From: Eledone cirrhosa
Lineage: Eukaryota
DNA length: 64,000 nucleotides
Reading direction: 5' to 3'
Assembly: GCA_964016885.1 (NCBI GenBank)
Contig: OZ024741.1
Span: 111,600,001-111,664,000, forward strand
Below are positions 2,294-60,296 of the stretch, piece after piece. Below the pieces are notes generated by a model. It saw nothing but the letters and a program-made list of their open reading frames with translations. It searched no databases and was not told the DNA's origin. The stretch's first letter is position 1, and every line of letters starts with the position of its first letter. The position numbers were made by a program, and so were the translations under genes.

Positions 2294-2437
2294 ATGGGGC
2301 TGGTACAGAGTTGTAATTGTAGTAGTGACAGTAGTTGCGGTCGTAGTAATAGTGGTGGTAATGTTGGTGGGAGGAGTTATATTATAGTAGTAACGGTAGT
2401 TCATATGTATTAGGAGAAGAAGAGATATACGTTATAC

Positions 2438-2513
<76 letters not shown>

Positions 2514-2517
<4 letters not shown>

Positions 2518-5500: not shown

Positions 5501-6224
5501 TCACAAAGCGGTTTTGAATCAAAGGGACTCTCATGGACATTATCCGATCATTGAATCCTCAAGGAAGATTTTCCAGCTTTGAGACGATTTCATTCCTGAC
5601 TGCAAATGCGACCCCTGCCTCTCTCCACTCCAATAGAAGGTATATCCTCTCTTCTGTTCTGTGAATTGACCCTCACCTTGCAATCTCGTTTCTAAAAGAG
5701 CAACGATGTCCATGGTATAGCGATCGAGTTCCCTCGACACCAAAGCAGATCTTCTTTCAGGGCGAGTTTTACTGGACTGGGAATCTAGTAAAGTTCTTAC
5801 ATTCCAACAGCCAATATTCAAAGGTTTGAACCTCCTTGCAGTTGTAGGATGACGACCGGGCCCACGCTGCGGTGCCATGGGACACCTGCCGGACCAGACC
5901 CCTTCACAATAAGTTCCAGAGCCCTTACTGCCATTGACTTCAAAGTTATCATCTGTCATCATAGAGTTTGGTGCACCTTTAGGCTACGGCCAGCCACACG
6001 AACCTGTAACAGATCCTGAACAAGCGATGCCTGTGCTTTGAAGGTTATTTAAGTGGGGAAAAGGCCTTGCACGCAACAAATCCCACTCTCTGAGCATCGA
6101 AAACACTACCCAAAAAGAATAACTGGTCAACATCATCGGATGCTTCCAAAGCCGCAGGTTTTTTTTTCAGAGTTTCCCTCTCCTAGAAAGGTGTTGTACA
6201 ACAACAGGGGGCCCTTCACTCCCA

Positions 6225-6396: not shown

Positions 6397-6490
6397 CGAT
6401 CTGTTACGCGCGTTTCGCAGAGGATTGGCTCAGGGTCACGCATATGAGTTATGAACCCGACTCCATTATCGATCTGCTCTTCAGATTGGC
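6397..6490 (-). ncRNA. Hammerhead ribozyme core, stem I poor
   Basis: Minus strand: CTGAAGA-GCAGA..TCTGC-GAAA-CGCGCG-TA. The stem I strands do not pair canonically. Confidence 0.55.
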
Positions 6491-6871: not shown

Positions 6872-6934
6872 GTATTTTATCTGATGAGAGCGTACCAAAG
6901 TTTTGGTACACTTGAAATATATATAATAGAATAC
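6872..6934 (+). ncRNA. Type I hammerhead ribozyme
   Basis: GTATTTTAT-CTGATGA-GAGCGTACCA aagttt TGGTACACTT-GAAA-TATATA-TA-ATAGAATAC: 9-bp stem I, intact core, palindromic stem III. Confidence 0.85.
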
Positions 6935-9740: not shown

Positions 9741-9783
9741 ACGCTGTACTAGTTTCAAGCTTATTAGCTATCGTCAGCAACGT
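9741..9783 (-). ncRNA. Minimal type I hammerhead ribozyme (left arm)
   Basis: Exact reverse complement of 9881-9923. Confidence 0.85.
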
Positions 9784-9880
9784 ATACCTTCCTGCCAGAT
9801 GATTGAACGTCTGCTCAGCCGTTAATATGCATAAGGAAAGTATATACTTTCAGACGTTCACTCATCTGGCAGGAAGGTAT

Positions 9881-9923
9881 ACGTTGCTGACGATAGCTAA
9901 TAAGCTTGAAACTAGTACAGCGT
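9881..9923 (+). ncRNA. Minimal type I hammerhead ribozyme (right arm)
   Basis: ACGTTG-CTGACGA-TAGCT aata AGCTT-GAAA-CTAG-TA-CAGCGT: 6-bp stem I, GUA cleavage triplet, palindromic ACTAGT stem III. Confidence 0.88.
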
Positions 9924-10699: not shown

Positions 10700-13182
10700 G
10701 ATAGCAACTAACAGTGCTGCGATCGAATGTGGCTTTTTAGCCTAGCCAATGATCTAAAATGTCTTGCACCAGAGTCGGCAACCAAAACATTCACTGGGAA
10801 TTGTCGGCTGTGGTTGGAGTTCGTGTACTTTTGCATGTCGCTTGAGCCCTCCTGCTGATTTACATTCTCTACCACATGTTTGGCAAGCATGATGAGTAGC
10901 ATCTCCAACAGCAGCCTGGTAGTCAACCACTGGTCTTACTTTATGACTGCGAAGATGACTTTGGAGTCCAGCTTTGCTTAGGCAGAGCCTCGCACAGACG
11001 CTGCATGTCAGCACCATAGGAGGACCCTCGCCGTCTGGAAGTGCAACAGCAATGCCCTTCCTCACATCCCGCTTTACTTTCTCGTGTGCGATTCGAGATG
11101 CCTCAAAGGCAACTTTTCCCTCATATACAGTCTTTCTCCATTTATTACGATCAGCAGCAATATTTTCCCATGTATCAGCAGAGATGTTAGCGTCTTTCAG
11201 AGAGGCTTTCAAGGAATCCTTATACCTCTTTTTTGGTTTATGTGGCGGTCGTTTTCCTTTAACCAACTCCCCATAGAAGAGTTGTTTTGGTATTCTAGAA
11301 TCCTTCATCCTGGCAAGGTGACCACTCCAACGGAGTTGTTGCTTAAGCACAAGAGCTTCTATACTGTCACACATAGAGCTTTCCAAAATCTCGGCATCAC
11401 TGATGTGGTCCCTCCAGTGAACGCCATGGATCCGTCTGAGACACATCTGATGGAAACGCTCCAATTGCCTAAGGTGGCGTCGATATGTGACCCAGGTCTC
11501 GCAGGCATAAAGAAGACAAGAGAGTACACATGCCCTGTACACCTTTACCTTTGTCCTCCTGCATATGTTTCGCCGACCCCAGAGTCGCCTTTCTAGCTTT
11601 CCGAAAGCATCACTTGCTTTCCTAATCCTAAGTGAGATTTCACTGTCAAGGTTGCCGTATCGATTGACAGTGCTTCCCAGGTAGACAAACTGATCAACCA
11701 CTCCAAGTCGTTTGCCATACACATAGATGTTTGGTTCAGTGTACTGCTTACTAGGGGCAGGTTGGTACATGACAACGGTTTTCTTGAGACTGACAGTCAA
11801 ACCCAGGGCAGTGCAAGCGTCAGAAAATGCATTCAAAATGTGCTGCATATCACTCTCTGTGTGCGCTACAAGATCGCAATCATCTGCATACAAGAGGTCT
11901 CTTATGATTGATGTAAATACTTTTGTCTTCGCAGCAAAGCGCCTGATGTTAAATATGCTGCCTGAGGTTCGATATCGGATGTAAACACCATGCTCGCAAT
12001 TCCTGAATGCAATACAGAAAACCATTGCAAAGTATATGGCAAACAGGGTCGGTGCTGGAATATCCCCCTGTTTCACTCCATTTTTTACTGAGATAGGTTC
12101 CGACATGTTACCTCCGACATTAACCCAAGCCTTCATGTCGTCATGGAAAGAACTAACTAAAGCAAGGAACTTATCAGGGCAACCAAGTTTCTGGAGAACC
12201 TTCCATAATGCATCTCTGTTGACAGTATCGAAAGCCTTTGTCAGATCGACAAAAACCTGATACAGATCCAAGCCTTGTTCAATGCACTTCTCCTGGAGCT
12301 GTCTAGCTGAGAAGATCATATCAGTAGTGCCGCGTCCAGCACGAAAACCAGATTGACTTTCAGGAAGAACACAATCTGCAATGTGTGTCAGCAGACGGTC
12401 CAGAAGCACCCTACATAAAACTTTCCCTACGACAGAAAGCAATGATATACCTCTGTAGTTCCCACAATCATTCCTGTTACCCTTTCCCTTGTACAAGACC
12501 ACCATTACTGCATCTCTCCAGTCCTCAGGCACGGATTCATTAGCCCATATCCTTCCAAACAAAGAGTGAAGATGTTGCAGGAGTCTCTCACCACCATATT
12601 GTAGGAGCTCAGCATGTATGCCATCCATACCTGGAGATCATCCACTGTTCAGCTTCGAAATAGCCACTGCAACCTCCACAAGCGTCGGAGGTTCTGCGAG
12701 AGCTACTTTCACAGGACTTTCTGGAATGAGATTGAGGAAATCTTCACTGACGACAGACGGCTGATTCAAAAGATCATCAAAGTGCTCTCGCCACCTTCGT
12801 AGAATTCCCTGTGAGTCACGAAGAAGTTCTTTGCCATCCTTGCTGCGAAGCGGTGTCACCAGAGAAGAAGACGGTCCATAAACCTCACGCAAGAGACTGT
12901 ACAACAGCTTTGTGTTATTGGAATCAGACGCAGTTTGTATCTCACCAGCCTTCTCACTCCACCACTGATCCTTCATCTGAGAAAGACTCCGCCTAACACG
13001 TGATTTTACATCCCTGAGCTCCTCATGCAACGTATTCTTCTCCTGTGGTTTTGCCGTCAAGTAGCGTGACAGAGCACGCCTCTTAGCCAACAAGTCTTCT
13101 ATATGTACATCATTCTCATTAAACCAGTCCTGATGTTTTCTCTGCACCAATCCCAGAACACGCCTGCCTACATCATAAACCG
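10700..13182 (-). mobile_element. RTE-clade LINE, 5'-truncated, young (624-aa intact RT stretch, three C2H2 fingers)
   Basis: ORF 10754-12628 has NYRGISLL, QSGFRAGRGTTD, FVDLTKAFD, GVKQGD, LLYADDC. Frameshifts near 12630 and 10755. The 3' end runs into (TG)n and the 5' junction is in (ATGT)n. Confidence 0.97.
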
Positions 13183-13207
13183 ACATACATACATACATAC
13201 ATACATA

Positions 13208-13386
13208 CATGGTGGCTGCCAACTCGTTTTCGAGTACGGCCACTACTTTATATTCATGTAGGAGAACCCCTACCGATACGCTGAACGAGTGTGACCTTTT
13301 AGTCCTGCAGGATGTCCATAGCCACCCTCCTCACCAAGAAACCTTGGTGGGGTTGCCAGTTTAGTCGCCAACGACCCGACCATGAC
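13208..13386 (-). mobile_element. Short non-autonomous RTE derivative
   Basis: GGTCGGGTCGTTGGCGACTAAACTGGCAACCCCACCAAG is shared with 8244-8300 and 46930-46987(-). Embedded in (ATAC)n. Confidence 0.7.
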
Positions 13387-31029: not shown

Positions 31030-34000
31030 ATGAGTAGATAGGCAGCTGGGTAGACAGGTAGCTGGGTAGACAGGTAGCTAAGTAGGCAGGTAGGTGGGTA
31101 GGCAGCTAGGTGGGTAGACAGGTAGGTGGGTAGACAGGTAGGTGGGTAGACAGACAAGTGGGTAGGCAGGTAGGTGGGTAGACAGATAGGTGGTAGACAG
31201 GTAGGTGGGTAGACAGACAGGTGGATAGATAGGTAGGTGGGTAGACAGACAGGTGGGTAGACAGGAAGGTGGGTAGAGAGATAGGTGGGTAGAAAGGTAG
31301 CTGGGTAGACAGGTAGGTGCGTAGGCAGGTAGGTGGGTAGACAGGCAGCTGGGTAGACAGGTAGCTGGGTAGACAGGTAGGTGGGTAGGCAGGTAGGTGG
31401 GTAGACAGGTAGGTAGGTAGATAGGCAGCTGGGTAGACAGGTAGCTGGGTAGACAGGTAGGTGGGTAGGCAGGTAGGTGGGTAGACAGGCAGCTGGGTAG
31501 ACTGATAAGTGGGTAGACAGGTAGGCAAGTAGACAGATAGGTGGACAGACAGATAGGTGCACAGACAGACAGGTGGGTAGACAGGTAGTTGGGCAGACAG
31601 GTAGGTGGGTAGACAGATAGTTGGGCAGACAGGAGGTTGGGCAGACAGGCAGGTGGGTAGACAGGTAGGTGGGAAGACAGACAGCTGGATAGACAGGTAG
31701 GTGCGTAGACAGATAGGTGGGTAGACAGGTAGTTGGGCAGACAGGTAGTTGGGCAGACAAGTAGGTGGGCAGACCGGTAGGTGGGAAGACAGGTAGGTGG
31801 GCAGACAGGTAGGTGGGCAGACAGGTAGTTGGGCAGACAGGTAGGTGGGCAAACAGGTAGGTGGGCAGACAGGTAGGTGGGCAGACAGGTAGTTGGGCAG
31901 AGAGGCAGATGGGCAGACAGGTAGGTAGGCAGACATGTAGTTGGGCAGACAGGCAGGTGGGTAGACAGGTCGGTGGGTATGACTGGTAGTTGGGCAGACA
32001 GGCAGGTGGGTAGATAGGTAGGTGGGCAGACAGGCAGGTGGGTAGACAGGTAGGTGGGCAGAGAGGCAGGTGGGCAGACAGGTAGTTGGGCAGATGGGTA
32101 GGTGGGTAGACATGTAGGTGGGTAGACAGGTATTTGGGCAGACAGGCAGGTGATTATACAGGTAGGTGGGTAGACAGGTAGGTGGGCAGACAGGTAGTTG
32201 GGCAGACAGGCAAGTGGGTAGACAGGTAGGTGGGTAGACAGGTAGTTAGGCAGACAGGTAGTTGGGCAGACAGATAGGTGGGCAGACAGGTAGGTAGGCA
32301 GACAGGTAGGTGGCCAGACAGGTAGGTGGGCAGACAGGTAGTTGGGCAGACAGGTAGGTGGGAGGACAGGTAGGTGGGCAGACAGGTAGGTGGCCAGACA
32401 GGTAGGTGGGCAGACAGGTAGTTGGGCAGACAGGTAGGTGGGCAGCAGGTAGGTGGGCAGACAGGTAGTTGGGCAGACAGGCAGGTGGGCAGACAGGTAG
32501 GTGGGCAGACATGTAGGTGGGCAGACAGGTAGGTGGGCAGACAGGTAGGTGGGCAGACAGGTAGTTGGGAAGCCAGGTAGGTGGGCAGACAGGTAGCTGG
32601 GCAGACAGGCAGGTGATTAGACAGGTAGGTGGGTAGACAGGTAGGTGGGCAGACAGGTAGTTGAGAAGACAGGTAGGTGGGTAGACAGGTAGGTGGGTAG
32701 ACAGGTAGGTGGGCAGAGAGGTAGTTGGGCAGACAGGAAGGTTGGTAGACAGGTAGGTGGGTAGACAGGTAGTTGGGCATACAGGCAGGTGGTAGACAAG
32801 TAGCTGGGCAGACAGATAGGTGCACAGACAGACAGGTGGGTAGACAGGTAGTTGGGCAGACAGGTAAGTGGGTAGACAGATAGTTGGGCAGACAGGTAGT
32901 TGGGTAGACAGGTAGTTGGGCAGACAGGCAGGTGGGCAGACAGGCAGGTGGGTAGACAGGTAGGTGGGTAGACAGGCAGGTGGGTAGACAGGTAGGTGGG
33001 CAGACATGCAGGTGGGTAGACAGGTAGGTGGGCAGACAGGTAGTTGGGCAGACAGGCAGGTGGGTAGACAGGTAGGTGGGTAGGCAGGTAGTTGGGCAGA
33101 CAGGCAGGTGGGTAGATAGGTAGGTGGGCAGACAGGCAGGTGGGTAGACAGGTAGGTGGGCAGAGAGGCAGGTGGGCAGACAGGTAGTTGGGCAGATGGG
33201 TAGGTGGGTAAACATGTAGGTGGGTAGACAGGTAGTTGGGCAGACAGGCAGGTGATTATACAGGTAGGTGGGTAGACAGGTAGGTGGGTAGGCAGGTAGG
33301 TGGGTAGACAGGTAGGTGGGTAGACAGAATGTGGGTAGACAGGTAGGTGGGTAGGCAGGTAGGTGGACAGAGAGAAAGGTGGGTAGACAGATAGGTGGGT
33401 AGACAGGAAGGTGTGTAGGCAGGTAGGTGGACAGACAGAAAGGTGGGTAGACAGATAGGTGGGTAGATAGACAGGTGGGTAGGCAGGTAGGTGGGTAGAC
33501 AGGCAGCTGGGTAGACTGATAGGTGGGCAGACAGGTAGGCAGGTAGACAGATAGGTGGACAGACAGATAGGTGCACAGACAGACAGGTGGGTAGACAGGT
33601 AGTTGGGCAGACAGGTAAGTGGGTAGACAGATAGTTGGGCAGACAGGTAGTTGGGCAGATAGGCAGGTGGGTAGACAGGTAGGTGGGCAGACAGGCAGCT
33701 GGGTAGACAGGTAGCTGCGTAGACAGATAGGTGGGTAGACAGGTAGTTGGGCAGACAGGTAGTTGGGCAGACAAGTAGGTGGGCAGACAGGTAGGTGGGC
33801 AGACAGGTAGGTGGGCAGACAGGTAGGTGGGCAGACAGGTAGTTGGGCAGACAGGTAGGTGGGCAGAGAGGCAGGTGGGCAGACAGGTAGTTGGGCAGAT
33901 GGGTAGGTGGGTAGGCATGTAGGTGGGTAGACAGGTAGTTGGGCAGACAGGCAGGTGATTATACTAGTAGGTGGGTAGACAGGTAGGTGGGTAGGCAGGT

Positions 34001-36510
34001 AGGTGGGTAGACAGGTAGGTGGGTAGACAGAAGGTGGGTAGACAGGCAGGTGGGTAGGCAGGTAGGTGGACAGAGAGAAAGGTGGGTAGACAGATAGGTG
34101 GGTAGACAGGAGGGTGGGTAGGCAGGTAGGTTGACAGACAGAAAGGTGGGTAGACAGATAGGTGGGTAGAAAGACAGGTGGGTAGGCAGGTAGGTGGGTA
34201 GACAGGCAGCTGGGTAGACTGATAGGTGGGCAGACAGGTAGGCAGGTAGACAGATAGGTGGACAGACAGATAGGTGCACAGACAGACAGGTGGGTAGACA
34301 GGTAGTTGGGCAGACAGGTAAGTGGGTAGACAGATAGTTGGGCAGACAGGTAGTTGGGCAGACAGGCAGGTGGTTAGACAGGTAGGTGGGCAGACAGGCA
34401 GCTGGTCAGACAGGAAGGTTGGTAGACAGATAGGTGGGTAGACAGGTAGTTGGGCAGACAGGTAGTTGGGCAGACAAGTAGGTGGGCAGACAGGTAGGTG
34501 GGCAGACAGGTAGGTGGGCAGACAGGTAGGTGGGCAGACAGGTAGTTGGGCAGACAGGTAGGTGGGCAAATAGGTAGGTGGGCAGACAGGTAGTTGGGCA
34601 GACAGGTAGTTGGGCAGACAGGCAGGTGGGTAGACAGGTAGTGGGTAGACAGGCAGGTGGGTAGACAGGTAGGTGGGCAGACAGGCAGGTGGGTAGACAG
34701 GTAGGTGGGCAGACAGGTAGTTGGGCAGACAGGCAGGTGGGTAGACAGGTAGGTGGGTAGACAGGTAGTTGGGCAGACAGGCAGGTGGGTAGACAGGTAG
34801 GTGGGCAGACAGGCAGGTGGGTAGACAGGTAGGTGGGCAGAGAGGCAGGTGGGCAGACAGGTAGTTGGGCAGATGGGTAGGTGGGTAGACATGTAGGTGG
34901 GTAGACAGGTATTTGGGCAGACAGGCAGGTGATTATACAGGTAGGTGGGTAGACAGGTAGGTGGGCAGACAGGTAGTTGGGCAGACAGGCAAATGGGTAG
35001 ACGTGTAGGTGGGTAGACAGGTAGTTAGGCAGACAGGTAGTTGGGCAGAAAGGTAGGTGGGCAGACAGGTAGGTAGGCAGACAGGTAGGTGGCCAGACAG
35101 GTAGGTGGGCAGACAGGTAGTTGGGCAGACAGGTAGGTGGGAGGACAGGTAGGTGGGCAGACAGGTAGGTGGCCAGACAGGTAGGTGGGCAGACAGGTAG
35201 TTGGGCAGACAGGTAGGTGGGCAGACAGGTAGGTGGGCAGACAGGCAGTTGGGCAGACAGGTAGGTGGGCAGACAGGTAGGTGGGCAGACATGTAGGTGG
35301 GCAGACAGGTAGGTGGGTAGACAGGTAGGTGGGCAGACAGGTAGTTGGGAAGCCAGGTAGGTGGGCAGACAGGTAGCTGGGCAGACAGGCAGGTGATTAG
35401 ACAGGTAGGTGGGTAGACAGGTAGGTGGGCAGACAGGTAGTTGGGAAGACAGGTAGGTGGGTAGACAGGTAGGTGGGTAGACAGGTAGGTGGGCAGACAG
35501 GTAGTTGGGCAGACAGGAAGGTTGGTAGACAGGTAGGTGGGTAGACAGGTAGTTGGGCATACAGGCAGGTGGTAGACAAGTAGCTGGGCAGACAGATAGG
35601 TGCACAGACAGACAGGTGGGTAGACAGGTAGTTGGGCAGACAGGTAAGTGGGTAGACAGATAGTTGGGCAGACAGGTAGTTGGGTAGACAGGTAGTTGGC
35701 CAGACAGGCATGTGATTAGACAGGTAGGTGGGTAGACAGGTAGGTGGGCAGACAGGTAATTGGGCAGACAGGCAGGTGGGTAGACAGGTAGGTGGGTAGA
35801 CAGTTAGGTGGGCAGACAGGTAGTTGGGCAGACAGGCAGGTGGGTAGACAGGTAGGTGGGTAGACAGGTAGTTGGGCAGACAGGCAGGTGGGTAGACATG
35901 TAGGTGGGCAGACAGGCAGGTGGGTAGACAGGTAGGTGGGCAGACAGGAAGGTGGGCAGACAGGTAGGTGGGCAGATGGGTAGGTGGGTAGTCAGGTAGG
36001 TGGGCAGACAGGCAGGTGGGTAGACACGTAGGTGGGCAGACAGGAAGGTGGGCAGACAGGTACTTAGGCAGATGGGTAGGTGGGCCACTGGCAGGTGGGC
36101 AGATGGGTAGGTGTTGTAGGTAAGCAGACAAGTAAGTTGGTAGACAGGTGGGAGCTGTAGGTAGATGGGTTGATAGATAGTTAGGTAGGTATAGTTAATA
36201 ATAAGTCAGGTAGATAGACAGGTAGATAGTTACACAGGTAGGTGGGAACACTGGTAGGTGTTTTAGGTAGGTGGGGTGACAAATATATAGGTAGGTATTG
36301 TAATAGGTATATAGAGAGGTAGATGGGTAGGTAGGTAGCTGTGGTAGGTGGCTATATAGTCAGGCAGGTATAGTATGTAGATATATTGACAGGTGGATGG
36401 GTAGAGAGGTAGGTGGGTAGAGAGGTAGGTGGGTAGAATAATATGTGGATAAACAGGCACGTGGGTAGTTAGGTTCATAGGTGGATTGGTAAGTGTGGTA
36501 GGTAAGTAGA
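31030..36510. repeat. G-rich 16-bp satellite (ACAGGTAGGTGGG[C/T]AG)n, about 5.4 kb
   Basis: Direct tandem repeats. The 16-aa periodic pseudo-ORFs correspond to three units. Confidence 0.97.
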
Positions 36511-36514
36511 TATG

Positions 36515-39500
36515 TTTCTTTTATTTGCCACAAGGGCATCAAAAGTGGGACAAGTACAATGGGGGGAGTTTACAAAACAAGGCGTCCTCAATAGGGAGGA
36601 GGCAATAACAATATATAAAAATAAAATAAAATATAACAAAAAATAGAATTATAACAAAATCCTCAATAGAGGATTTTGTTATAAAATATAACAAAAAATA
36701 AAATTTATAACAAAATCCTCAATAGAGAGGAGGCGCCTTGGGGGGTCGCACACACCCCCGAAAAAAGTGTGCAACCCTTTTCCTCAGGAGCACAGAGAGG
36801 GGGTGCTCCCTCGTTCCTTCCTCTTTTCCACCTACAGGCTCATGTAAAGAGAAGGCCCATTCACACGGGCCATTCTCGCCACTTTCACCCACCTTTCATA
36901 AAAACGACTGGGGTGCAGCACCTCCCTCTCCATCCTGATCCTTCTTCCGAAATGATATCGGAAGAAACGGACCAGTTGTTGGCCAGAGAGAAAGGTGCCT
37001 GACCTCAGTCCTTTCAGACGCGTCCACCATACAACCTCTTTCGCCATGGCTATTACGCACAGAAACACCGCCTCTGCTTCATCTTTGAAGGGGGGAGGCG
37101 GCTTGATCATTACAATAGACTCGGTGGTCAACCGGATCGGTCCCACCCTTGACAGCAGTTGTTCGACATAGCCCCACAGATCGGCTACGCCCGAGCAGTG
37201 TACCAATGCGTGTGCAACGGTTTCCTCGTCGCACACGCATCTGGGACAGATCTTTTTGGCGGGGTCCCTACCCGGGCGCCCGTGTCTGTAGAGCCTTTCT
37301 CGAACGGGTAAAGCCCCTCGGTAGCACTGCCAGGCCAGGGACTTCTGGAAGTTGTCCATAGGTCCCGGGCTGAATGTCCTACCGAACAGGCTGGCCAGTT
37401 CGTCCTCCTCCATGTCTAGGGCTTCTCCGAGGGCGTCGTCGCACCTGCTGCGTACCAGCCCTCTATAGAATGTTGCGGTGGAGTCTCCACTGATAACCGG
37501 ATCCGCCTGCCAGAGGGCGGTGAGCGCCTGGGCACACCCAGTGTGCCAGGCGCCCAGTTTTCTCGGTCTTTGCTTGACCCAGGATTGCAGCTCGGTGAGT
37601 GAGACGAGTCTGGAAAGGTTCGTCTCACAAACGAGGCCCACACCGGTTGTCCAGTGAGGAATACGTAGAGGTGCCGTAGCCTTAATGCGTGTTTACGCAT
37701 CATTAGCCGCGGCATCCCCAGCCCCCCTTTCGAAGGGTGTTGACAGCAGATGGATCTCCTCACCATAGGAGCCCGCCTCTTCCAAAGGAATTGGAAGAGC
37801 GCGCGCTCCATCTTGGTGAGGGTTTCCCTTGGGCAGGGCACTACGGTCAGGCGGTAGTAGATGACGGACGCTATGTAGGTATTCGCCACCTCCGCCCGAC
37901 CTTTCAGGGATAGTTTGCAACTGGCCCACTTCTGGGTCAGTGCAAACACCCTGTTCGTAACCTCCGCCCAGTTTTTCTCCACCTGGAGGTCCGGTCCGAA
38001 CCAGACCCCGAGCAACTTCACCGGGCCCTCCGTCCAGCGTCCGACGACGCCATCGGAGGGCATCGGTCTGCCCCTCCACGTGCCGAGTTGCAAACCGATC
38101 GACTTGTCCCGGTTCAGCTTAGCCTGTGAACTTTTCGTACTCCTCCAGTAAGGTGCCGACCGCCTCGATTTCGGAGGCCGTCGACACCATTACTGTCACG
38201 TCATCGGCGTAGGCCGACACCGCTTTCCGCAATCCCGGTTCCAAAGGGATGCCCTGCAACAACTCCAACTTCCGCAGTAGTGGCTCGAGAGTCAACACAT
38301 ACAGAAGGGAGGAGAGAGGGCACCCTTGTCGGATGGACCGCGCGATTTTGAACGGCTCCGAGAGGTAGCCGTTCACCTTGACCCTAGAGCAGATACGGCT
38401 GCTGTGCATAGCAGTGATCCAGCCCCTGAAAACGGGTCCGAAGCCTGCCGCCGCTAGCACCGCATCCAGGTAACCATGGTCGACCCTATCGAACGCCTTA
38501 GATTGATCCAAGTTGATCAGAGCCCCACCAAAGCCGGGTTCGTTCCCAACCCTCTCTATGATGTATCGCATGAGGTGGAGGTTGTCATGGATGGACCTGG
38601 ACGGGATAGCGCATGTCTGCGCATCTCCCACCAGGTTGCCCACGACAAACGCCAACCTCTTTGCTAGCACCCTGGCCAAAATCTGTAACTCTGTATTTAG
38701 CAGAGTTATGGGCCTGAAGTTACTTATTTCGTCCCCCTTGTTCTCGTCCTTCCTCACTAGCGTGACTACGCCCTTGGTCACAGTACAGGGAATTCTCCCG
38801 TTCTGTTGCCAGTTGCAGTAGACCGCCTCGAGGAGATCGGGGAACAAGTCCGGCATAGCTAGATATAATTCGTAAGGAAGACCATCGAGACCCGGGGATT
38901 TGCGTTTGCCGCATTGGCTCAGCACGTCCTCTATCTCAGCGGCCGAAATCGGCTCCTCGCAGGACTTCGCCTCCCTGTCCGAGAGGCGCGGCAGGCCGTC
39001 GAGGTATGGACCGAAGTCCACGTTCCCAACCGGCTCCCCGCCCCTCCCGAACAGTCGGGCAAAGTGCCTTTGAAAGGCCTCACACATCTGCTTAGGCTCA
39101 AGAATCGCCCGTCCATCCAGGTCTCGCAAAGACCGGATGGTGGATTTAGTTCCACTGTTGGCCTCTGTCACGCGGGCCCAGCTAACAGCTTTGGTCCCCT
39201 CGTTCCCTAGAGCACGTATTTTACTTCGGACAACGCAGCCTTCGTGCTTCGCGTCGAAAAACTGGCTCAAAGCCGTTCTCGACGCTAGCACTCTGGCCAC
39301 GTCGCCGCTTCTAATTGCCTCTTCTACTCTATCTATTAGCTCCCTTTCCTTCCTATTCCTATCCGCAGCTAGAACCTTACTAAATTCTATCGAGACTACT
39401 CTAATCTCTCTCTTTAGAGATACCCACCACCTGCTGTTGACGATCGCTCCAGTCAACCGTTCCTTAACTAACGTACTAATCCGATTCCTGTAGGCTCTAC

Positions 39501-40720
39501 TTGCCGGCAAGGACAAGTTGAGCTTCCAGTAACCGGGGCCCTGTCTATGAGTTCTGTCAAGGTTGACCATGCAGGTCACTAATTTGTGGTCTGAATAGCC
39601 AACCATGCGCATTTTTGGACAACTTAAAAAGTCCTTATCCTTAATTCTAACTAAGAACCTATCTAGGTACGACCTAGATGATCCGCTACGATTTGCCCAA
39701 GTCCAGGTTGGCGCAGTCGGAAAATCTAGTCGATATCTATCGGCCAGGTCAAATCGACCGATTAACCCTTTGAGGCTATTACACCCCTCTCTATCGGGGC
39801 AGGCCCCTACGTAGTCCCAGCGTGCATCTAGGATACCATTCCAGTCCCCCACTAATAGCAAGGAGCGGGACGTCCCTAGAAAAGTCTCCAGACGATGGAA
39901 GAAGTCCGGCCGCATTGACCCGAAAGGGCCGTAGGCGGCTACCAACCTAAACGCTCCGCCTTTACCACTGCCAAGGTCCAGAACCACTAGTCGACCCTCC
40001 GGGTCCAAATGTACCATCTGTGTTGCGAGACCCAGATGTTTTTGCAGCAGAACGACAACTCCACCCCCACCTCCGGGCTGACAGAGAGATGCGTGCATCT
40101 CAAAGTCATCAAAGGTGGGGGCCAGCTGTCGCACGTTGCTGATCCGGGCCTCGCAAATAACCATCACATCTATACGTTGTGACCTGAGGTCATTTAGAAG
40201 CATTGCTTGCTTCCAAGTTGAGCCCAGGCCACGCGCATTTAAACAGCCTACTCTTAGCTTAGCCATGTTGGTGGTGAAGAGAAAAGGCACTTACCTCTCT
40301 GCGTCCCGGGTATCGGGCTGCACAATTTCCATTAGGGTGGGGGATGGGTTGTTGGGTGGGGTGGTGGTTTGTGGAAGTGTGGGGGCATCAGTGTGTTGTG
40401 TGGTTGGGGAGCTTGGAGTTGTGTGGGTGTTTGGGGAGGGGGTGGGATAGTTTTTTAGGAGGACGCGGTTAATGGGCCCGACGCAGGGGGGACCCAGGTC
40501 CTCTTTAAAATTGTTTTTTAAAGTTTTATAGGTGTCCTGTGGGGCCTTAATCATTTTGAGGTGGGGGAAATCCCCTGCCTGGGTGAAGTTAGGCCCTTGT
40601 GTTTTTATTAGATTGTTGTTGTACACAATGTTTAACAGTTTTTTGTTTCTTGTATTTATGTATGTGTATGCATGTTTTTGTTTTTGTGTGGTGTTTTTTG
40701 TTTGCTGTTGTTGTGAGCTC
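36515..40720 (-). mobile_element. Tx1-clade LINE (ORF1 C-terminal part, ORF2 APE-RT-CCHC, 3' UTR), about two frameshifts
   Basis: VGCLNARGL, LVGDWNG, YSDHK, GPGYWKLN, KSPGLDGL, NFRPITLLN, NLDQSKAFDRV, IRQGCPLS, AYADDV, GGLGMP, CPRCVCDEETVAHALVHC. Terminus CCCTTGTGGCAAATAAAAGAAA. Confidence 0.96.
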
Positions 40721-41940
40721 ATAGATAGTTAGGTGGGTAGACAGTTACGTGGGTATATATGTAGGAGTGGTTAGTGGTATATATATATACACTGCTAGGT
40801 ATGTTGATAAACACACAGGTAGGAAGGTGTGTAGATGGGTGGGTGGGTATATAGGTGGGTGGGTATATAGGTAGGTGTGTAGATAGGAAGGTGTGTAGAT
40901 AGGTAGGTGTGTAGATAGGAAGGTGTGTAGATAGGAAGGTGTGTAGATAGGTAGGTCTGTATATAGGAAGTTGTGTAGATAGGAAGGTGTGTAGATAGGT
41001 AGGTGTGTTGATAGGAAGGTGTGTAGATAGGAAGGTCTGTAGATAGGTGGGTGTGTAGATAGGTAGGCGTGTAGATAGGTGGGTGTGTAGATAGGTGGGT
41101 GTGTAGATAGGAAGGTGTGTAGATAGGTAGGTGTGTAGATAGGAAGGTGTGTAGATAGGAAGGTGATAGATAGGAAGGTGTGTAGATAGAAAGGTGTGTA
41201 GATAGGTAGGTGCGTAGATAGGTAGGTGTGTAGATAGGTAGGTGTGTAGATAGGAAGGTGTGTAGATAGGAAGGTGTGTAGATAGGTGGGTGTGTAGATA
41301 GAAGGTGTGTAGATAGGTAGGTGTGTAGATAGAAGGTGTGTAGATAGGTAGGTGTGTAGATAGGTAGGTGCGTAGATAGGTAGGTGTGTAGATAGGTAGG
41401 TGTGTAGATAGGTGGGTGTGTAGATAGGAAGGCGTGTAGATAGGTAGGTGCGTAGATAGGTAGGTGCGTAGATAGGTGGGTGTGTAGATTGGAAGGTGTG
41501 TAGATAGGAATGTGTGTAGATAGGAAGGTGTGTAGATAGGAAGGTGTGTAGATAGGAAGGTGTGTAGATAGGTAGGTGTGTAGATAGGAAGGTGTGTAGA
41601 TAGGAAGGTGTGTAGATAGGAAGGTGTGTAGATAGGAAGGTGTGTAGATAGGAAGATGTGTAGATAGGAAGGTGTGTAGATAGGAAGGTGTGTAGATAGG
41701 AAGGTGTGTAGATAGGAAGCTGTGTAGATAGGAAGGTGTGTAGATAGAAAGATGTGTAGATAGGAAGGTGTGTAGATAGGAAGGTGTGTAGATAGGTAGG
41801 TGTGTAGATAGGAAGGTGTGTAGATAGGAAGGTGTGTAGATAGGAAGGTGTGTAGATATGTAGGTGTGTCGATAGGTAGGTGTGTAGAAAAACACAGACT
41901 GATAGGTAGAAAAGTTGATAGGTAGGTAACATAGATGAGT
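40721..41940. repeat. 16-bp satellite variant (GTGTGTAGATAGG[A/T]AG)n
   Basis: Tandem repeats at 40815-41890 with degenerate (GTAG)-like edges. Confidence 0.96.
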
Positions 41941-49179: not shown

Positions 49180-51555
49180 ATTATGGGGCAACACTATTAA
49201 ATTATGGGGCAACACTAGCGAAGCAATTCGCTGGTTTAATAACGTTAAGAACAAGAATAAGTCTAAGTTTATACAATTTGACATAGAATAATACTACTCT
49301 TCAATCTCACCCAACACTTTACGTAAGGCCCTATCGTTTGCCAAAGTCAATTCCGACCTAACGGAGAACGACATTAATATTATTCTATAGGCTAGGAAAA
49401 CTATTATCAAGTTTGATAACTGCTACTGGGAACGTAAGGACAGACCTACAAACTTCGACATTACCATGGGCTCCAACGACTCAGCGGAGGTCACCGATCT
49501 TGTAGGAATTTACATAACCCACATACTACATGGAAAATTTAGTAATCTACAGGGGGGAATATATAGAGATGACGCGCTTTTATTAGTTAATAACTTAAAT
49601 AACCAAAATCTTGAAAGGCTACGGAAAAAACATTAGAAAATCTTTTAGTGAACTGGGTCTAAAAATAACGTACGAATACAATCTTAAAGTAGTAAATTTT
49701 CTAGACGTAACTCTTAATTTAAATACCAGACTGATACGACCCTTCCACAAGATATATGAGAACCTTACCTATATCAATTTTAACTCAAACCACCCACTTT
49801 CCATGATCAAATCAGTTCCCCGTAGTATTTCTCTTAGAATCTCTCGCCTATCGTCTAACTCTGAGATTTTCAGTGAACATGCTGAATACTATAATAGTGC
49901 ATTAAGGAATGCCGACCACCGGGATACAATAGAATACATTGATAAGAATCTCCATAACACACATAGTTCTACATGAAATCAAAGAATACGTAACCGGGGT
50001 ACAGAAATACAAGCGCATACACGCAGTACCACCAGACATACTAATAATAGAAAATCATCACCAAATAAATCACGTTGTAGAAAGTATATCTGGTATAATC
50101 CCATTTTTAATGCTTCGATTAGTACAAAACTATCTCTTTCATTCTTTAAGTTAATCAACAAGCATTTCCCTAGTTCCCATAAATACAGTAAAATTTTGAA
50201 CTCTAAGACTATTAAGCTATCATACTCCACTGCACCAAACCTTGAAGCATACATAAAAAACTTAACTTAAAGCAATTAAACAACACTACAAAACAAAATA
50301 TTTTAATAGCAGATGAGCATAACGTAGTATCGGCCTCCCAACCACTAAATAGGAGACGGGTATTACACAACCCACCTGTACTGTTATCCCAACCTATCCA
50401 TGGTATACCTGCTACCCACAATAAAAACTGTAACTGTCACCTACCTGAAAGATGTCCATTGAAGAATAAATGGTTAAAGTCCAACATTGTTTATCAATGC
50501 ACTGTTGAATCGAACGACCAGAAATGGTATTACATTGGGTCTACCACTAACTCCTTTAAATCTCACTGGTATCGCCATCGATTCTCAATTAAACATCCTA
50601 ATCACCGTTTTGTGACCACGCTCGCCAACAAGACCTGGCAACTCCGCGAACGCAACCAACAGTTCACCTTGAAATGGAATACACTTTCCAGCGCTAGTGC
50701 ATATCGGAGTGGATTGAAGTACTGTAGGTTATGTAACCTTGAACTCTTTTACATCTTAAAATCCCAAAATAAATTACTAAATGATATAATCGAACGATCA
50801 TTATACTGCAACCACAAACTGAAGGCTAAATTCTCTCACTATAAAATAACTTAACATTCGAACCCGTAACTATAACATTGCTTTCTCGCTAACTACTTTC
50901 TCTCAACAACTTCTTAACTATATCCTCCACACTACAAGACAATACCCTGCTTATCACTATAAATGGATACTTAAGTGCAATTTGTAGCCTACAACTATGA
51001 ACTCAATGTACACCCATCCCATAGCTTTCGTCTGTCCCCTCTCTACCTCTATCTCTATCTCTTCCTCTCTACCCCCCTCTCTCTCTCTCTCGCCATCGGT
51101 CCACCTCCCTCCCTCTCCATATCTATGAACCTGCCCTCTGTGGAAATAAATAATTCCAACCTTAACTATCAACGCATCGCTTAAGGTTGTCGCTTTGAGA
51201 GTAACCAGTATAATAAAACCCTTACCACAACATTTTGATTAAGATATCTGTATTCTACAAACCACTCTCTCCCATTTCTCCAACCCCTGCATATATATAT
51301 CTCTCTCCCTCTCCCCTTCTTTCTCTCTTCCTTTTCTACTCTATCTTCCCCAATAACTTCCCTTATGGGTATTTACATTTTACATTTTAACCATTCTGCT
51401 CTGAAGATTCAGTGGTAACGGCATTTGATAATTGAGTTTTGCAAATAGTTATAAATTTGCACATAGCATAACTAGGCTGTATAACCACCGTGGAAACATT
51501 TGTAAGCACACGGAATAAATTACCTTTTTATGATGTCTACCTGTTATTATTCATT

Positions 51556-51560
<5 letters not shown>
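49180..51560 (+). mobile_element. Penelope-like element (Naiad-like), 5'-truncated: RT, CxCx5C linker, GIY-YIG endonuclease, 3' pLTR
   Basis: FIQFDIE*YYSSIS, FDITMGSNDSAE, IYRDDAL, VNFLDVTLNL, IWYNP, CNCHLPERCP, NIVYQCTV..YYIGST, CRLCNLE..LLN. (TA)n lies on both sides. Confidence 0.95.
51397..51508 (+). ncRNA. Type I hammerhead ribozyme with extended stem II, in PLE 3' UTR
   Basis: TGCT-CTGAAGA-..GTGGT (long loop) ACCAC..-GAAA-CATTTG-TA-AGCA, followed by AATAAA and (TA)n. Confidence 0.72.
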
Positions 51561-51709: not shown

Positions 51710-52700
51710 TCGTGATATCCTATTTCACCGCCCTTTATCCTCCGACCCCACTCCTGGCTACCAACAACTCATGTCCTCCACCCTTCACTAAATCATCTCC
51801 TCCTTTTTCCTACTCCCCACCCCTACAGCCATCAACTTTATAGTACGCACCACTCGCATACCCACCATCTACTTCCTCCCCAAACTATACAAACCAAATA
51901 ATCCCGGCCGTCCTATCGTTTCCGTGCGCAAATGTCCCACCGAAATCATCTCAGAATACTTAGATACCCTCCTCGCCCCATTAGTCGTCAACCTCCCCTC
52001 CCACATCCACAACACCAATCATGCCCTTAGATTATTCAACTTCTCCTTCCCTCCTGGCCCCTCTCGCTTTCTCTTCACCCTAGACATCACCTCTCTATAT
52101 CGTCATCCCTCATGGTGACTGCCTCCGCGCTCTCCGACACTTTTTAGACTTACGCCCTACCTCATACCCCAACACTACCACTTTTCTTCGTCTGTCTGAG
52201 CTTGTTTTGACCCTCAATGGATTTTCTTTTTCCGGTGAATTCTATCAGCAGGTCTCTGGCGTAGCGATGGGAACCAGAATGGGCCCAAACTATGCCAACT
52301 TGTTTGTTGGCTACGTCGAAGCCCAGATCTCCCAGTACGCTGGACCAACTTCTGAGCTATATAGTCGTTATATCGACGACTGTATCGGTGCCACCTCTCT
52401 ATCACGAGAACAACTCGACTGCTTTCTATCTTTCGTTCAATCTTTTCATCCCGCTCTCACCTTCACAACCTCCGTCTCCGATTCTTCGGTCCCTTGTCTT
52501 GATATCTCTCTATCTATCGATCACTCTCATCACACCCTCTGTACCTCCATCTTCTATATAACCGACTGAATCCAACTCTTACCTCCCATTCGCCTCCTCC
52601 CATCCAAACCACACCAAATTCTCCATACCCTACTCCCAATTCCTCCGTCTTCGTTGGCTCTGTAGCCTGGACCACGATTCCGAAACCTATTCCCTATTTA
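51710..52700 (+). pseudogene. Penelope-like RT relic (Neptune-like)
   Basis: IYFLPKLYKPNNPGRPIVS, FTLDITSLY, YQQVSGVAMGTRMGPNYANLF, SRYIDDCIG, SIPYSQFLRL. Confidence 0.92.
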
Positions 52701-55716: not shown

Positions 55717-56400
55717 AGTGGAAGCTTAGTAAAATCGAAGCTTTGGCTGTGGGCAAGCAAAGTCGACCTACAATAGGAATGAGTTAGCAAACCGCTCAAT
55801 AAGAGTAGGTCGTTGGAGTAATAACATACGTTTAAATAGCTTGACAAATTGAACATTGCGGTAGGCAAAACCCAACCACACAATACCAAAGTAACGAAAG
55901 AACTAACAGGTTAAAAGATACACCTGGACAAATCAAACGATATATGTCTAAAGTGTTTCTATGAATCCGAAATCATTTATCCAACTTACGTAACACGCAC
56001 GCTCGTGGTATTCCATGATCGAACAGAGGACACATTTCATCAACAGGGATTACGTTCTGCTTCAAAGCGGTGTGAACAAACAAAATGCGGCCGCTAAGAA
56101 TGCAGCCAGCGAACACTTCGTTGTCACGTTTTTGGCGGGTAAATTCAAAGTGTTAACAAGGGAAATATGTATATATATTATTCAAAATGTTAACAAATGA
56201 AAAATATTCTCATAATCAAAATATATACTTTATTATATATATTTCAAAGGTACTGTGTTGTTTTTTCAGTACGTCCTCATCAGACAAAATATATGATTTG
56301 ACATATGACATACCGTTACGGTCTTGATTATTCAATTCCAGTATTGGCAGCACTGGGTTACATGTTACCAATAGCACCCGTGAGCTACCTGACACACACA

Positions 56401-56452
<52 letters not shown>

Positions 56453-56482
56453 AACAAAAGATGGTTAAAAGAGTTCCATGTA

Positions 56483-56549
56483 TTTTATTATGCGCATTTC
56501 AAAAACAAATATCATCATGCAATAATATTTGTGTTTTCATCAGATAAAA
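56483..56549 (-). ncRNA. Type I hammerhead ribozyme
   Basis: Reverse complement of 56704-56770. Confidence 0.85.
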
Positions 56550-56703
56550 CAGGAAGACATGATATGAAGGTTAAAAAACACTTGTGGATAGTGCAGTTTT
56601 AAATCAACATATGTTGATTTAAACATATGTTTAAATCAACATATGTTGATTTAAAACTGCACTATCCACAAGTGTTTTTTAACCTTCATATCATGTCTTC
56701 CTG

Positions 56704-56770
56704 TTTTATCTGATGAAAACACAAATATTATTGCATGATGATATTTGTTTTTGAAATGCGCATAATAAAA
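56704..56770 (+). ncRNA. Type I hammerhead ribozyme
   Basis: TTTTAT-CTGATGA-AAACACAAATATTATT gcat GATGATATTTGTTTTT-GAAA-TGCGCA-TA-ATAAAA. Confidence 0.87.
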
Positions 56771-56895
56771 TACATGGAACTCTTTTAACCATCTTTTGTT
56801 CTTATATATTATGTATACTCCAGTCCTACAAACTGTAGAGTGCTTCTTATCCGATATCTGCATTGCTTTATTGTACTACAATAAAACTCACCTCC

Positions 56896-56949
<54 letters not shown>

Positions 56950-56957
56950 TGTGTATG

Positions 56958-57054
<97 letters not shown>

Positions 57055-57067
57055 GTGTATATATATA

Positions 57068-57165
<98 letters not shown>

Positions 57166-57288
57166 GGAGGTGAGTTTTATTGTAGCACAATAAGGCAATG
57201 CAAATATCGGATAAGTAGCACTCTACAGTTTGTAGGACTGGGGTATAAATAATATAAGATCAAAAGATGGTTAAAAGCGTTCCAAGTA

Positions 57289-57355
57289 TTTTATTATGCG
57301 CATTTCAAAAACAAATATCATCATGGGATGATATCTGCGTTCTCATCAGATAAAA
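57289..57355 (-). ncRNA. Type I hammerhead ribozyme
   Basis: Reverse complement of 57768-57834. Confidence 0.85.
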
Positions 57356-57767
57356 TAGGGAGACATGATATGAAGCTTAAAAAACACTTGTGAATAGTGA
57401 AGTTTTAATTTAAGTCTTAATTTAATACTATTCTTAATTCCTTTTTCTTCATGCATAAACCTCATTAACTTTTAATTTCAAAATCTTTTAAATTATCTAT
57501 TATCTTCCAACGGCTTTTTAATTTCTCTCAGTGAGACGATATATATTTTTTCTCTCAGTTGTAAAGGCTATCTCTCGCTCTCTATCACCCATCTCTCCTC
57601 CTCACTCATCCTTCCTTCTTATACTCCTCCCCCAGCATCCTTTACCTTTTCCAACCCCACCTCACTTTTTCACAATCTCATACATCAATCTTAATTTATT
57701 TTTCATATGTTCATTTAAAACTTAACTATTCACAAGTGTTTTTTAAGCTTCATATCATGTCTCCCTA

Positions 57768-57834
57768 TTTTATCTGATGAGAACGCAGATATCATCCCAT
57801 GATGATATTTGTTTTTGAAATGCGCATAATAAAA
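57768..57834 (+). ncRNA. Type I hammerhead ribozyme
   Basis: TTTTAT-CTGATGA-GAACGCAGATATCATC ccat GATGATATTTGTTTTT-GAAA-TGCGCA-TA-ATAAAA. Most stem II changes relative to 56704 keep pairing. Confidence 0.87.
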
Positions 57835-57866
57835 TACTTGGAACTCTTTTCACCATCTTTTGATCT

Positions 57867-57899
<33 letters not shown>

Positions 57900-58692
57900 C
57901 AAAGATCGGAATTAAGAGTATTCCGCAGTTCACTGTAATAATAATAATAGTATTAGCTCAAAGAAGACATAGAGAATTTCCTTCTGAGCTCAAATGCAAG
58001 TATATATTACACAAAGAGAAGTGTGTCACACAGTGAGATGTGTGTAAAGAATTATTACGAGTGTTTTTACCGTTACTGTATAGAGAACAATATCTACAGG
58101 TTAGCAATTAAATAGAAAAAAACCAATTCAGAATCAAATCTGTGGATTAGAGTTTGAAATCACAAACCTTATAACTATATTTTGCTGATACGAATCTCGC
58201 TTCGTTTCACCACCTATATGTGAAGTATCAGGTCACAGGATCCTGAGTCAGCAAATGCGAACACTGAACACTACACATCTAACCTCGTGGATAGAGAGAT
58301 TGCTAATAGACACGCTGGCCAGAGTAGGGCGAAATCACGTGTTATTTGCATCAAATAACGGCTCTCATGGATTGGGGAAGACGCTAGAAAGTGCAGCCCA
58401 ACCATTCGAATTTATTAGCTCAACAATTTGGAGCTCATTAAGTATATAAAGATCGGAATTAAGAGTATTCCGCAGTTCACTGTAATAATAATAATAGTAT
58501 TAGCTCAAAGAAGAAATAGAGAATTTCCTTCTGAGCTCAAAGTCAAGTATATATTACACAAAGAGAAGTGTGTTACACAGTGAGATGTGTGTAAAGAATT
58601 ATTACAAGTGTTTTTACCGTTACTGTAGAGAGAACAATATCTACAGGTTAGCAATTAAATAGAAAAAAACCAATTCAGAATCAAATCTCTGG

Positions 58693-58697
<5 letters not shown>
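57900..58697 (-). mobile_element. Partial-tandem (1.5-mer) PLE pLTR or retrozyme-like element
   Basis: About 250-bp direct repeats at 57900-58150 and 58447-58697 enclose a variant hammerhead at 58181-58255(-). TA repeats flank it. Confidence 0.7.
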
Positions 58698-59408: not shown

Positions 59409-60296
59409 CGAGATGTATCAGAAAAGTTCCAGGACTGATGTCACAAAAGATTTATTTCAAACCCAAACTTCACACTAAGTGTTTTCTCCTTCAAAGTAAT
59501 CCCCCCTGGAGTATATAACTGTAATCTTAGCTTTCTGCAGCGATCAAACTTTTTTCTTCATAATTTTATATACATGTCCTCTGTTTCAGGTCGTCAAGAA
59601 ATGAGCACAGAGCAACGAACAAACTTGAAGTTTCTGGTACGGTTGCTGCAGCAAGTGTATGGAGATGAGACGATGTCACGCTCACGTGTTTTTGAGTGGT
59701 GCAAGAGGTTTAAAGAAGGACGCGAGGACGTGGAAGATGACCCCAGGAGCGGAAGGCCCTCAACAACCAGGACTGAGGTCAACGTTGAGCGCGTCAGGCA
59801 GATGGTGCGTAGCGATCGTCGGCTGACTGTTCGACTTATGGCAAATGAGCTGGGAATGAATCGGGACAGCGTCTGGAAGATTCTCACTGAAGATTTGGAC
59901 ATGCGGAAAGTCTGCTCGGAGATGGTGCCAAAACTGCTGAACGATGACCAGAAGGGTCGACGCATGCAAGTGTGCCAGGACATCCTCGAGGGTCTTGAAA
60001 CCGAACCAGACTTAGTAGGGACAGTCATCACCGGTGATGAGTCATGAATCTTCTAGTACGACCCAGAGGGGACCCGTTTTGAAGACGTGGACGACATCAA
60101 AAAGGCCGTGACGACGGAACTGCGGAGGATCCCGGAAGAATCCTTCAAGGAGTGCATGCAAGCGTGGCAGAAGAGGATGGAAAAGTGCATTGGACTCCAG
60201 GGGGGTTACTTTGAAGGAGAAAACTCTTAGTGTGAAGTTTGGGTTTGAAATAAATCTTTTGTGACATCAGTCCTGGAACTTTTCTGACACACCTCG
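59409..60296 (+). mobile_element. Mariner (irritans-like) transposon, internally deleted
   Basis: About 70-bp TIRs and TA TSD. EQRTNLKF..VFEWCKRFKEGRE..PRSGRP..VPKLL..ITGDES*IF*YDP is joined directly to GTRFEDVDDIKK..GGYFEGE. Confidence 0.96.

What the first reader, a model, noticed from the sequence alone, without database searches (positions are those of the whole stretch)
56449..57872. Concertina array with four hammerheads in alternating orientation
Seen: (TA)n, perfect 356-bp palindrome, tail, (TA)n, inverted tail, then a second inverted pair (57253-57407 and 57717-57872) with a pyrimidine-rich spacer of about 310 nt, then (TA)n. The two pairs are sequence variants whose stem II differences mostly preserve pairing (A-U to G-U, U-G to C-G), supporting selection on structure. 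The spacer resembles in composition the PLE 3' UTR at 50860-51395. The first axis is a nest of three CATATG palindromes, suggesting repeated snap-back synthesis. Each strand holds two sense HHRs about 0.8-1.1 kb apart, which could excise a defined RNA and allow intramolecular dimer cleavage (inference).
Basis: partly seen in the sequence, partly recalled or inferred. Interest (0 to 1): 0.75.

Follow-up and report, generated by a model that had tools for sequence, protein, structure and literature searches.

The report
Two Penelope stubs in one microsatellite
The four ribozyme motifs are real but ordinary: they are broken-off ends of a Penelope-type jumping gene whose ribozyme end occurs over ten thousand times in this genome, likely two separate insertions lying back to back in one TA repeat, and RNA read through them is predicted to fold so that none of the four can cut.

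Summary
The anatomy is confirmed: four type I hammerhead motifs (-,+,-,+), a perfect spacer-less palindrome, two tails and three (TA)n tracts. It is not one functional array. Each ~170-bp arm is the pseudo-LTR of a Penelope-like element with Hydra-clade protein motifs; a 32-mer of its ribozyme has 10,984 exact matches in the genome. The tail is the element's 5' leader and the spacer its own 3' UTR. The locus is most likely two head-to-head insertions (56446-56898, 57163-57872) of two subfamilies (90% identical, each with closer relatives elsewhere) meeting tail-to-tail in one (TA)n. Spacer-less fold-backs at the same point occur at 563 places, and two other four-arm arrays were found. Inverted pLTR, one-sided tail and (TA)n targeting are published. 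Folding predicts that antisense arms sequester every ribozyme (+95 kcal/mol to form the dimer), so the proposed 1064-nt product is unlikely. Junction fillers (an extra C at arm ends) and one-sided tails favour two independent primings running off a capped RNA start. This scan reached that reading before on other DNA of this genome. Reads could not confirm this locus's own junctions.

The parts
56400..56450 (.). (TA)n target tract, left
56446..56613 (-). Insertion 1, tail-less pLTR arm (subfamily A1), identical to the right arm
   Evidence: 170 of 170 identical
56489..56543 (-). Type I hammerhead motif 1; predicted cut after 56489
56598..56655 (.). Nested head-to-head junction: the common CATATG fold-back plus a 32-bp symmetric insert built from the first bases of the pLTR
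   Evidence: 1 place in genome vs 563 for the simple form
56640..56807 (+). Insertion 1, tail-bearing pLTR arm (A1); ATATG at 56641 is the inferred RNA start
56710..56764 (+). Type I hammerhead motif 2; predicted cut after 56764
56808..56898 (+). Tail 1 (~88-91 bp) = 5' leader between pLTR and ORF of the full-length element
   Evidence: L100 and L106: pLTR-tail-ORF
56899..57162 (.). (TA)n tract shared by the two insertions
57163..57250 (-). Tail 2 (82 of 88 identical to tail 1)
57251..57408 (-). Insertion 2, tail-bearing pLTR arm (subfamily A2), cut short 11 bp before CATATG
57295..57349 (-). Type I hammerhead motif 3; predicted cut after 57295
57409..57703 (+). Inversion junction (about 7 bp) and 5'-truncated 3' UTR of the family (the 'spacer')
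   Evidence: 85-88% to L046/L003, follows the endonuclease ORF in L045 and L100; UTR likeness starts at 57416 (loose ends)
57704..57872 (+). Insertion 2, tail-less pLTR arm (A2)
   Evidence: 156 of 159 identical to the left arm
57774..57828 (+). Type I hammerhead motif 4; predicted cut after 57828
57867..57899 (.). (TA)n target tract, right

Best explanation
The four arms are pseudo-LTR ends of one abundant Penelope-like retrotransposon family, likely laid down as two separate head-to-head insertions that met tail-to-tail in one (TA)n tract and are predicted to be inactive as ribozymes in any read-through RNA. Shown: identity of arm, tail and spacer; copy number; recurrence of every module; two subfamilies. 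Inferred mechanism for each insertion: the element's endonuclease cuts both strands in (TA)n; each 3' end primes reverse transcription of uncleaved element RNA at one of two internal start sites ~88 nt apart (one gives the tail, one does not); the two cDNAs run toward the RNA 5' end, stop at the capped start (ATATG) or earlier, and are joined head to head through short complementarity. In insertion 1 both ran to the start and the join stuttered once (32-bp nest); in insertion 2 one stopped in the pLTR and one in the 3' UTR.
For: Family: 47 matches to one arm; 5,520+5,464 exact ribozyme 32-mers. Parent: L100 = (TA)n, tail+arm inverted, arm, tail, 738-codon ORF, 3' UTR, arm, (TA)n; L045 likewise. 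Module recurrence: 563 exact spacer-less junctions; of the 50 listed, 46 have two full arms, 45 of 46 a tail on exactly one arm, 21 of 46 no substitution between arms; 22 of 27 neighbouring hits under 10 kb are head-to-head. Two origins: pairs 152 of 168 identical; A1 arms 100% identical to L074 and 88 of 112 other loci are closer to them than the window's other pair; A2 arms 97-98% to L117. Four-arm arrays with diverged inner arms at L140, L141. Two primings: in insertion 2 only the left arm has the tail and only the right has the UTR, so neither is a DNA copy of the other. RNA-start run-off: 589 further junctions end at ATATG with 1-4 filler bases; C follows an arm end in 23 of 24 multi-base fillers, templated run-through GA in 0 of 48 ends. 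Two RT start sites bounding the tail, double-strand cutting of AT-rich DNA and use of uncleaved RNA are reported for an anole PLE (PMC11167929). Folding: 71 of 71 bases of each motif pair with an antisense arm; forced dimer +95 and +105 kcal/mol.
Against: AU test did not reject the four window arms as one clade (p 0.47, 98 rows of ~168 bp). Like-to-like neighbours across (TA)n are in excess genome-wide (tail-tail 29, tail-end 19, end-end 21), so some double arrays do arise by mirror duplication (L124, L122 have identical inner arms). Single-base C/G fillers (25 of 50) cannot tell an added C from a templated base. No target-site duplication can be read in (TA)n and no empty or single-insertion allele was seen. 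Folding is equilibrium prediction; co-transcriptional folding was not modelled. Reads did not bridge this locus's junctions.
Confidence: 0.82

Rival explanations
1. Same element and two insertions, but each inverted pair forms by self-priming (snap-back) on an antisense template rather than by two primings on the target DNA.
For: Proposed for rotifer PLEs from palindromes at inversion junctions (PMC3846280 Discussion passage). The nested axis here and at L123 shows template stuttering at the join.
Against: Arms with mutually exclusive sequence (tail on one, UTR on the other: insertion 2, L101, L110, L115); loop-less perfect junctions at 563 places; C bias at arm ends.
Confidence: 0.15
2. One concertina event: repeated fold-back synthesis, including a hairpin in the central (TA)n, made all four arms.
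For: Like-to-like excess 50 of 69, p 1e-4; identical inner arms at L124 (206/206) and L122 (178/179); AU test not significant.
Against: Here inner arms differ at 16 of 168 and tails at 6 of 88, while arms within a pair are 100% and 98% alike and match different copies elsewhere.
Confidence: 0.05
3. A functional four-ribozyme cassette that cuts out a 1064-nt (or 806-nt) RNA by intramolecular dimer cleavage and perhaps circularises, like a retrozyme.
For: All four cores are intact, stem III is palindromic and a nested dimer fold is geometrically possible (0 crossing pairs); dimers of such motifs cleave weakly in vitro (PMC4209133).
Against: Antisense arms win by about 95-105 kcal/mol; no tandem direct repeat unit; intact cores are expected of young copies; no RNA evidence either way.
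Confidence: 0.02
4. The spacer-less palindrome or its nested centre is an assembly artefact.
For: Arms are 100% identical; nested 32-mer occurs once; no listed read or contig spans it.
Against: 563 simple equivalents, 25 of 46 with arm differences, and the tail on one arm only; different flanks on each side; a second nested axis at L123.
Confidence: 0.05

Closest known systems
EN+ Penelope-like element insertions with inverted 5'-truncated pLTR and one-sided tail (PMC8557442 passages and Fig. 2 legend; PMC3846280 passages)
   Same: Head-to-head inverted pLTRs, optional tail on one arm, palindrome at the inversion junction, hammerhead in the pLTR, microsatellite target.
   Different: Tail is ~88 bp rather than 30-40 bp; here two ORF-less stubs share one tract; nested junction.
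Hydra clade of C-terminal EN+ PLEs (PMC8557442 section 11)
   Same: DKT, CxCX5C linker, CxxC and CxH around the EN end, canonical HHR, (TA)n insertion.
   Different: RWI instead of RWK; unit about 3.3 kb (clade 'generally <3 kb'); no phylogeny against reference Hydra proteins was run.
PAc (anole Poseidon PLE) in vitro mechanism (PMC11167929, parts 1-2 of 4)
   Same: Tail = sequence after the pLTR; two RT start sites; both strands of AT-rich DNA cut; uncleaved RNA used.
   Different: There the tail lies inside the ORF start; the paper's parts read do not address how inverted pairs form.
Minimal type I HHRs of PLEs and non-LTR retrozymes (PMC4209133 parts 1-2 of 4; bioRxiv 10.64898/2026.07.22.740005 part 1 of 5)
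   Same: Palindromic stem III needing a dimer; dual HHRs 100-700 bp apart on opposite strands already reported.
   Different: Retrozymes are direct tandem repeats; here copies are inverted and so predicted to block each other.
L1 twin priming (PMC11702581 passages)
   Same: Second target end primes a second cDNA; join by microhomology or untemplated bases.
   Different: In L1 the second priming is internal at a variable site and gives non-overlapping pieces (recalled); here both arms repeat the same pLTR from two fixed sites.

Membership tests
EN+ Penelope-like element | Single ORF with RT then GIY-YIG endonuclease | tested here: met
   Parent copies L100/L045: YRDD RT motif, C-terminal EN motifs; EN part 35% identical (E 3e-13) to a window ORF with a sub-threshold GIY-YIG hit. 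Pfam itself gave no RT or EN hit on L100. The locus itself has no ORF.
EN+ Penelope-like element | pLTR at both ends, direct or inverted | tested here: met
   L100, L106: pLTR-tail-ORF-UTR-pLTR plus inverted arm
EN+ Penelope-like element | Optional tail on one arm | tested here: met
   45 of 46 fold-backs; both insertions here
EN+ Penelope-like element | Hammerhead motif in the pLTR | tested here: met
Hydra clade | DKG changed to DKT | tested here: met
   HSDKT in L100, L045
Hydra clade | CxCX5C linker | tested here: met
   CNCPIKNKC
Hydra clade | CxxC and CxH near the EN end | tested here: met
   CNLC and CLH in L045 translation
Hydra clade | RWK motif | tested here: inconclusive
   RWI here; RW in 5 of 5 aligned homologues
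Hydra clade | CCHH motif absent | tested here: inconclusive
   Judged by eye only; no reference alignment
Hydra clade | Insertion into (TA)n | tested here: met
Hydra clade | RT phylogeny groups with Hydra families | not tested
Type I hammerhead ribozyme | CUGANGA / GAAA / UH core with stems I-III | tested here: met
   4 of 4 motifs; stem III is the 8-nt palindrome AUGCGCAU; only shared core variant is at N7
Type I hammerhead ribozyme | Self-cleavage | not testable with these tools
   Folding prediction only
Non-LTR retrozyme | Direct tandem units each with a type I HHR | tested here: not met
   Adjacent units are inverted; definition
Non-LTR retrozyme | Circular RNA | not testable with these tools
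   No RNA run with raw reads listed

The most novel reading that the evidence does not exclude
The locus is ordinary, but its family is a natural record of how PLEs make inverted ends: both broken ends of a (TA)n target prime on uncleaved, capped sense RNA at two fixed sites, the cDNAs run off the cap (extra C) and anneal head to head, against the published antisense self-priming proposal; a minority of neighbours then arise by hairpin self-priming inside (TA)n, giving true mirror concertinas.
Probability: 0.55. Interest if true: 0.5.

Novelty: new member of a known kind. Interest (0 to 1): 0.22.

Why it matters
As a locus it does not: it is transposon debris with a published layout. The family's junction census bears on a stated open question, how PLEs form tandem/inverted structures and tails (PMC8557442), and gives sharp predictions (RNA start at ATATG, two primed ends, 88-nt offset) for the existing in vitro PLE assay. 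The thousands of head-to-head copies would also yield long double-stranded RNA when read through (inference).

Tried and rejected
1) An apparent rule that the two arms of an insertion differ G/T at 56781 was an ascertainment artefact: the query arm carried G and the search skips common words; G was in 0 of 46 pattern-selected pairs and absent from L099-L118. 2) DNA searches with the tail and with arm+tail returned nothing, not even self: uninformative. 3) Rfam showed no hammerhead row. 4) Pfam and PDB gave nothing for the parent ORF; 4 unnamed homologues at 31-42%. 5) Reads: no RNA holder listed; contigs and RAD reads cover the family deeply but no listed piece spans the nested axis or the 57408/57409 junction; these runs may be other individuals, so inconclusive. 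6) AU test inconclusive. 7) Spacer homology to the neighbouring PLE's UTR rejected. 8) Intermolecular cofolding was scripted but the script stopped before it and it was not repeated. 9) Paper searches: none of the listed papers holding 'pLTR' also held 'twin priming'; this does not cover Repbase/Dfam or unread supplements, where this family may already be listed.

Full report
Observation. The window lies at G000:C2:111600001-111664000 of a 3.0-Gb assembly; the host was not identified. The region 56400-57900 reads (TA)n, a perfect palindrome with 183-bp arms centred at 56626/56627, an ~90-bp tail, 264 bp of (TA)n, an inverted tail, an inverted arm, ~295 bp of pyrimidine-rich DNA, an arm, (TA)n. 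Four hammerhead cores alternate -,+,-,+ and would cut after 56489, 56764, 57295 and 57828. Each is type I with a 12-bp stem II and the palindromic stem III AUGCGCAU. Rfam showed no hammerhead among the 150 rows listed of 157.

What the parts are. One arm retrieved 47 matches and 30 loci in the genome. A 32-mer of the ribozyme's 3' half has 5,520 + 5,464 exact matches, control 0; these count arms, not insertions. Extending 17 of those loci showed the spacer directly downstream of an endonuclease frame and upstream of the arm. L100 is nearly complete: (TA)n, inverted tail+arm, arm, tail, a 738-codon ORF that ends early at a frameshift, 3' UTR, arm, (TA)n. So arm = pLTR, tail = 5' leader, spacer = 3' UTR. 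The protein has YRDD, DKT, CNCPIKNKC and, in L045, CNLC and CLH: the motif list given for the Hydra clade (PMC8557442 section 11), except RWI for RWK. Pfam and PDB found nothing; clade placement rests on motifs, not on a tree. The spacer is not homologous to the UTR at 50860-51395, which belongs to a distant PLE (35% identity in the endonuclease).

The modules recur. The simple spacer-less junction at the same CATATG occurs at 563 places. Of the 50 places listed, 46 have two full arms; 45 of the 46 carry the tail on exactly one arm and 21 have no substitution between arms. Among the first 100 ribozyme hits, 27 neighbours lie within 10 kb: 22 head-to-head, 4 direct, 1 tail-to-tail. Tail-(TA)n-tail with a 6-36-bp gap occurs at 29 places; in 24 loci covering 25 of them, L140 and L141 are four-arm arrays like this one with inner arms about 91% and 89% identical (one arm in each is truncated), and L124 has six arms. 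The nested triple axis is unique as an exact 32-mer; a doubled axis exists at L123. The literature describes inverted truncated pLTRs, one-sided tails, junction palindromes, (TA)n targeting and opposite-strand hammerheads 100-700 bp apart (PMC8557442 passages; PMC3846280 passages; PMC4209133 part 1).

Two insertions, not one array. Arms within pair 1 are 170 of 170 identical, within pair 2 156 of 159, between pairs 152 of 168; tails 82 of 88. Pair 1 is identical to L074, and 88 of 112 other loci are closer to it than pair 2 is; pair 2 is 97-98% identical to L117. Against this, an AU test on 98 short rows did not reject a single clade (p 0.47), and like-to-like neighbours are in excess: tail-tail 29, tail-end 19, end-end 21, where independent orientation predicts about 49 mixed. 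Some double arrays are therefore mirror duplications (L124, L122); those have identical inner arms, which this locus lacks.

Selection. In 94 loci (one arm each; 20 of them chosen by an exact match to the ribozyme's 3' half, so biased toward intactness) all 8 shared variants at paired positions keep pairing, all as one-sided wobble changes, and the only shared core variant is at the free N7 position. Rare variants fall at 0.006-0.009 per site in core, stems and flank alike. Structure is thus conserved in source lineages; inserted copies decay neutrally. This says nothing about function at this locus.

Would it cut? In full-length transcripts of either strand, 71 of 71 bases of each motif pair with an antisense arm. 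Forcing the dimer helices costs 95 kcal/mol (+) and 105 (-). These are equilibrium predictions. Even unobstructed minimal PLE hammerheads cleave weakly (PMC4209133 part 2).

Mechanism (inferred). An anole PLE cuts both strands of AT-rich DNA, starts reverse transcription at two internal sites that bound the tail, and uses uncleaved RNA (PMC11167929 part 2). Two primings, one per broken end, explain the one-sided tail and head-to-head polarity. In insertion 2 each arm holds sequence the other lacks, so neither is a DNA copy of the other. Earlier notes of this scan suggested that fold points mark the RNA start; I tested that. In L099-L118, 8 of 46 arms end within 4 bp of CATATG, 11 inside the pLTR, 27 run into the UTR. 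Another 589 junctions have both arms ending at ATATG with 1-4 filler bases. Of the 50 listed, 26 fillers are single (25 C/G, ambiguous); of the 24 longer ones 23 have C right after an arm end, 29 of 48 ends start with C (p 2e-7 against 0.25) and none starts with the templated GA. An added C opposite the cap is my reading, recalled from L1 and retroviral RT work; the passage seen only reports untemplated G at L1 5' ends (PMC4729875). The standard junction needs only ATAT annealing of two run-off ends; the nest here would be that join with one extra round of slippage. The published alternative is antisense self-priming (PMC3846280).

Limits. No read or contig listed spans this locus's own junctions, no RNA run was available, and supplements of the cited papers were not opened; they may already list this family.

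Verdict. Real, correctly described, but an ordinary by-product of a high-copy PLE: new member of a known kind, interest 0.22. The value lies in the family-wide junction census, which this scan has partly noted before on other DNA.

Noticed in passing
window 56234-56283 (-): A fifth hammerhead motif of another family (stem III AUAUAUAU), 160 bp left of the array and next to the same (TA)n; a related motif lies at 6881-6925 (+).
   Followed up: partly
window 6405-6484 (-): Hammerhead motif with long stem II and palindromic ACGCGCGU stem III beside (TA)n, probably another PLE stub.
   Followed up: no
window 49205-51560 (+): 5'-truncated, frameshifted PLE between (TA)n tracts with CNCX5C linker and GIY-YIG (sub-threshold); hammerhead-like core with long stem II near 51400-51505 that does not fold as such in prediction.
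   Followed up: partly
G000 genome-wide: Like-to-like neighbours across short (TA)n are in excess (50 of 69), suggesting hairpin self-priming in (TA)n or oriented re-targeting; L124 is a six-arm example.
   Followed up: partly
L107 676-1248 and 7230-7802: The same insertion, with the same junction, appears twice in mirror orientation 6 kb apart: a larger inverted duplication or an assembly effect.
   Followed up: no
window 57896-58696: Direct duplication, 254 bp at 97% identity, 547 bp apart, starting at the right (TA)n.
   Followed up: no
window 51760-52690 (+): A second, different RT fragment (RVT_1 E 4e-5), pyrimidine-rich and degenerate.
   Followed up: no
window 59439-60047 (+): Mariner/Tc1-type helix-turn-helix ORF fragment.
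   Followed up: no
window 31036-36113 and 40820-41888: Two 16-bp-period satellites (318 and 67 copies) flanking a LINE-type ORF at 36832-40290.
   Followed up: no
window 9762-9902: Strong inverted repeat with about 45-bp arms; not examined.
   Followed up: no
window 2432-5983 and 10754-13330 (-): Two LINE-type RT/endonuclease fragments with C-terminal C2H2 zinc fingers.
   Followed up: no
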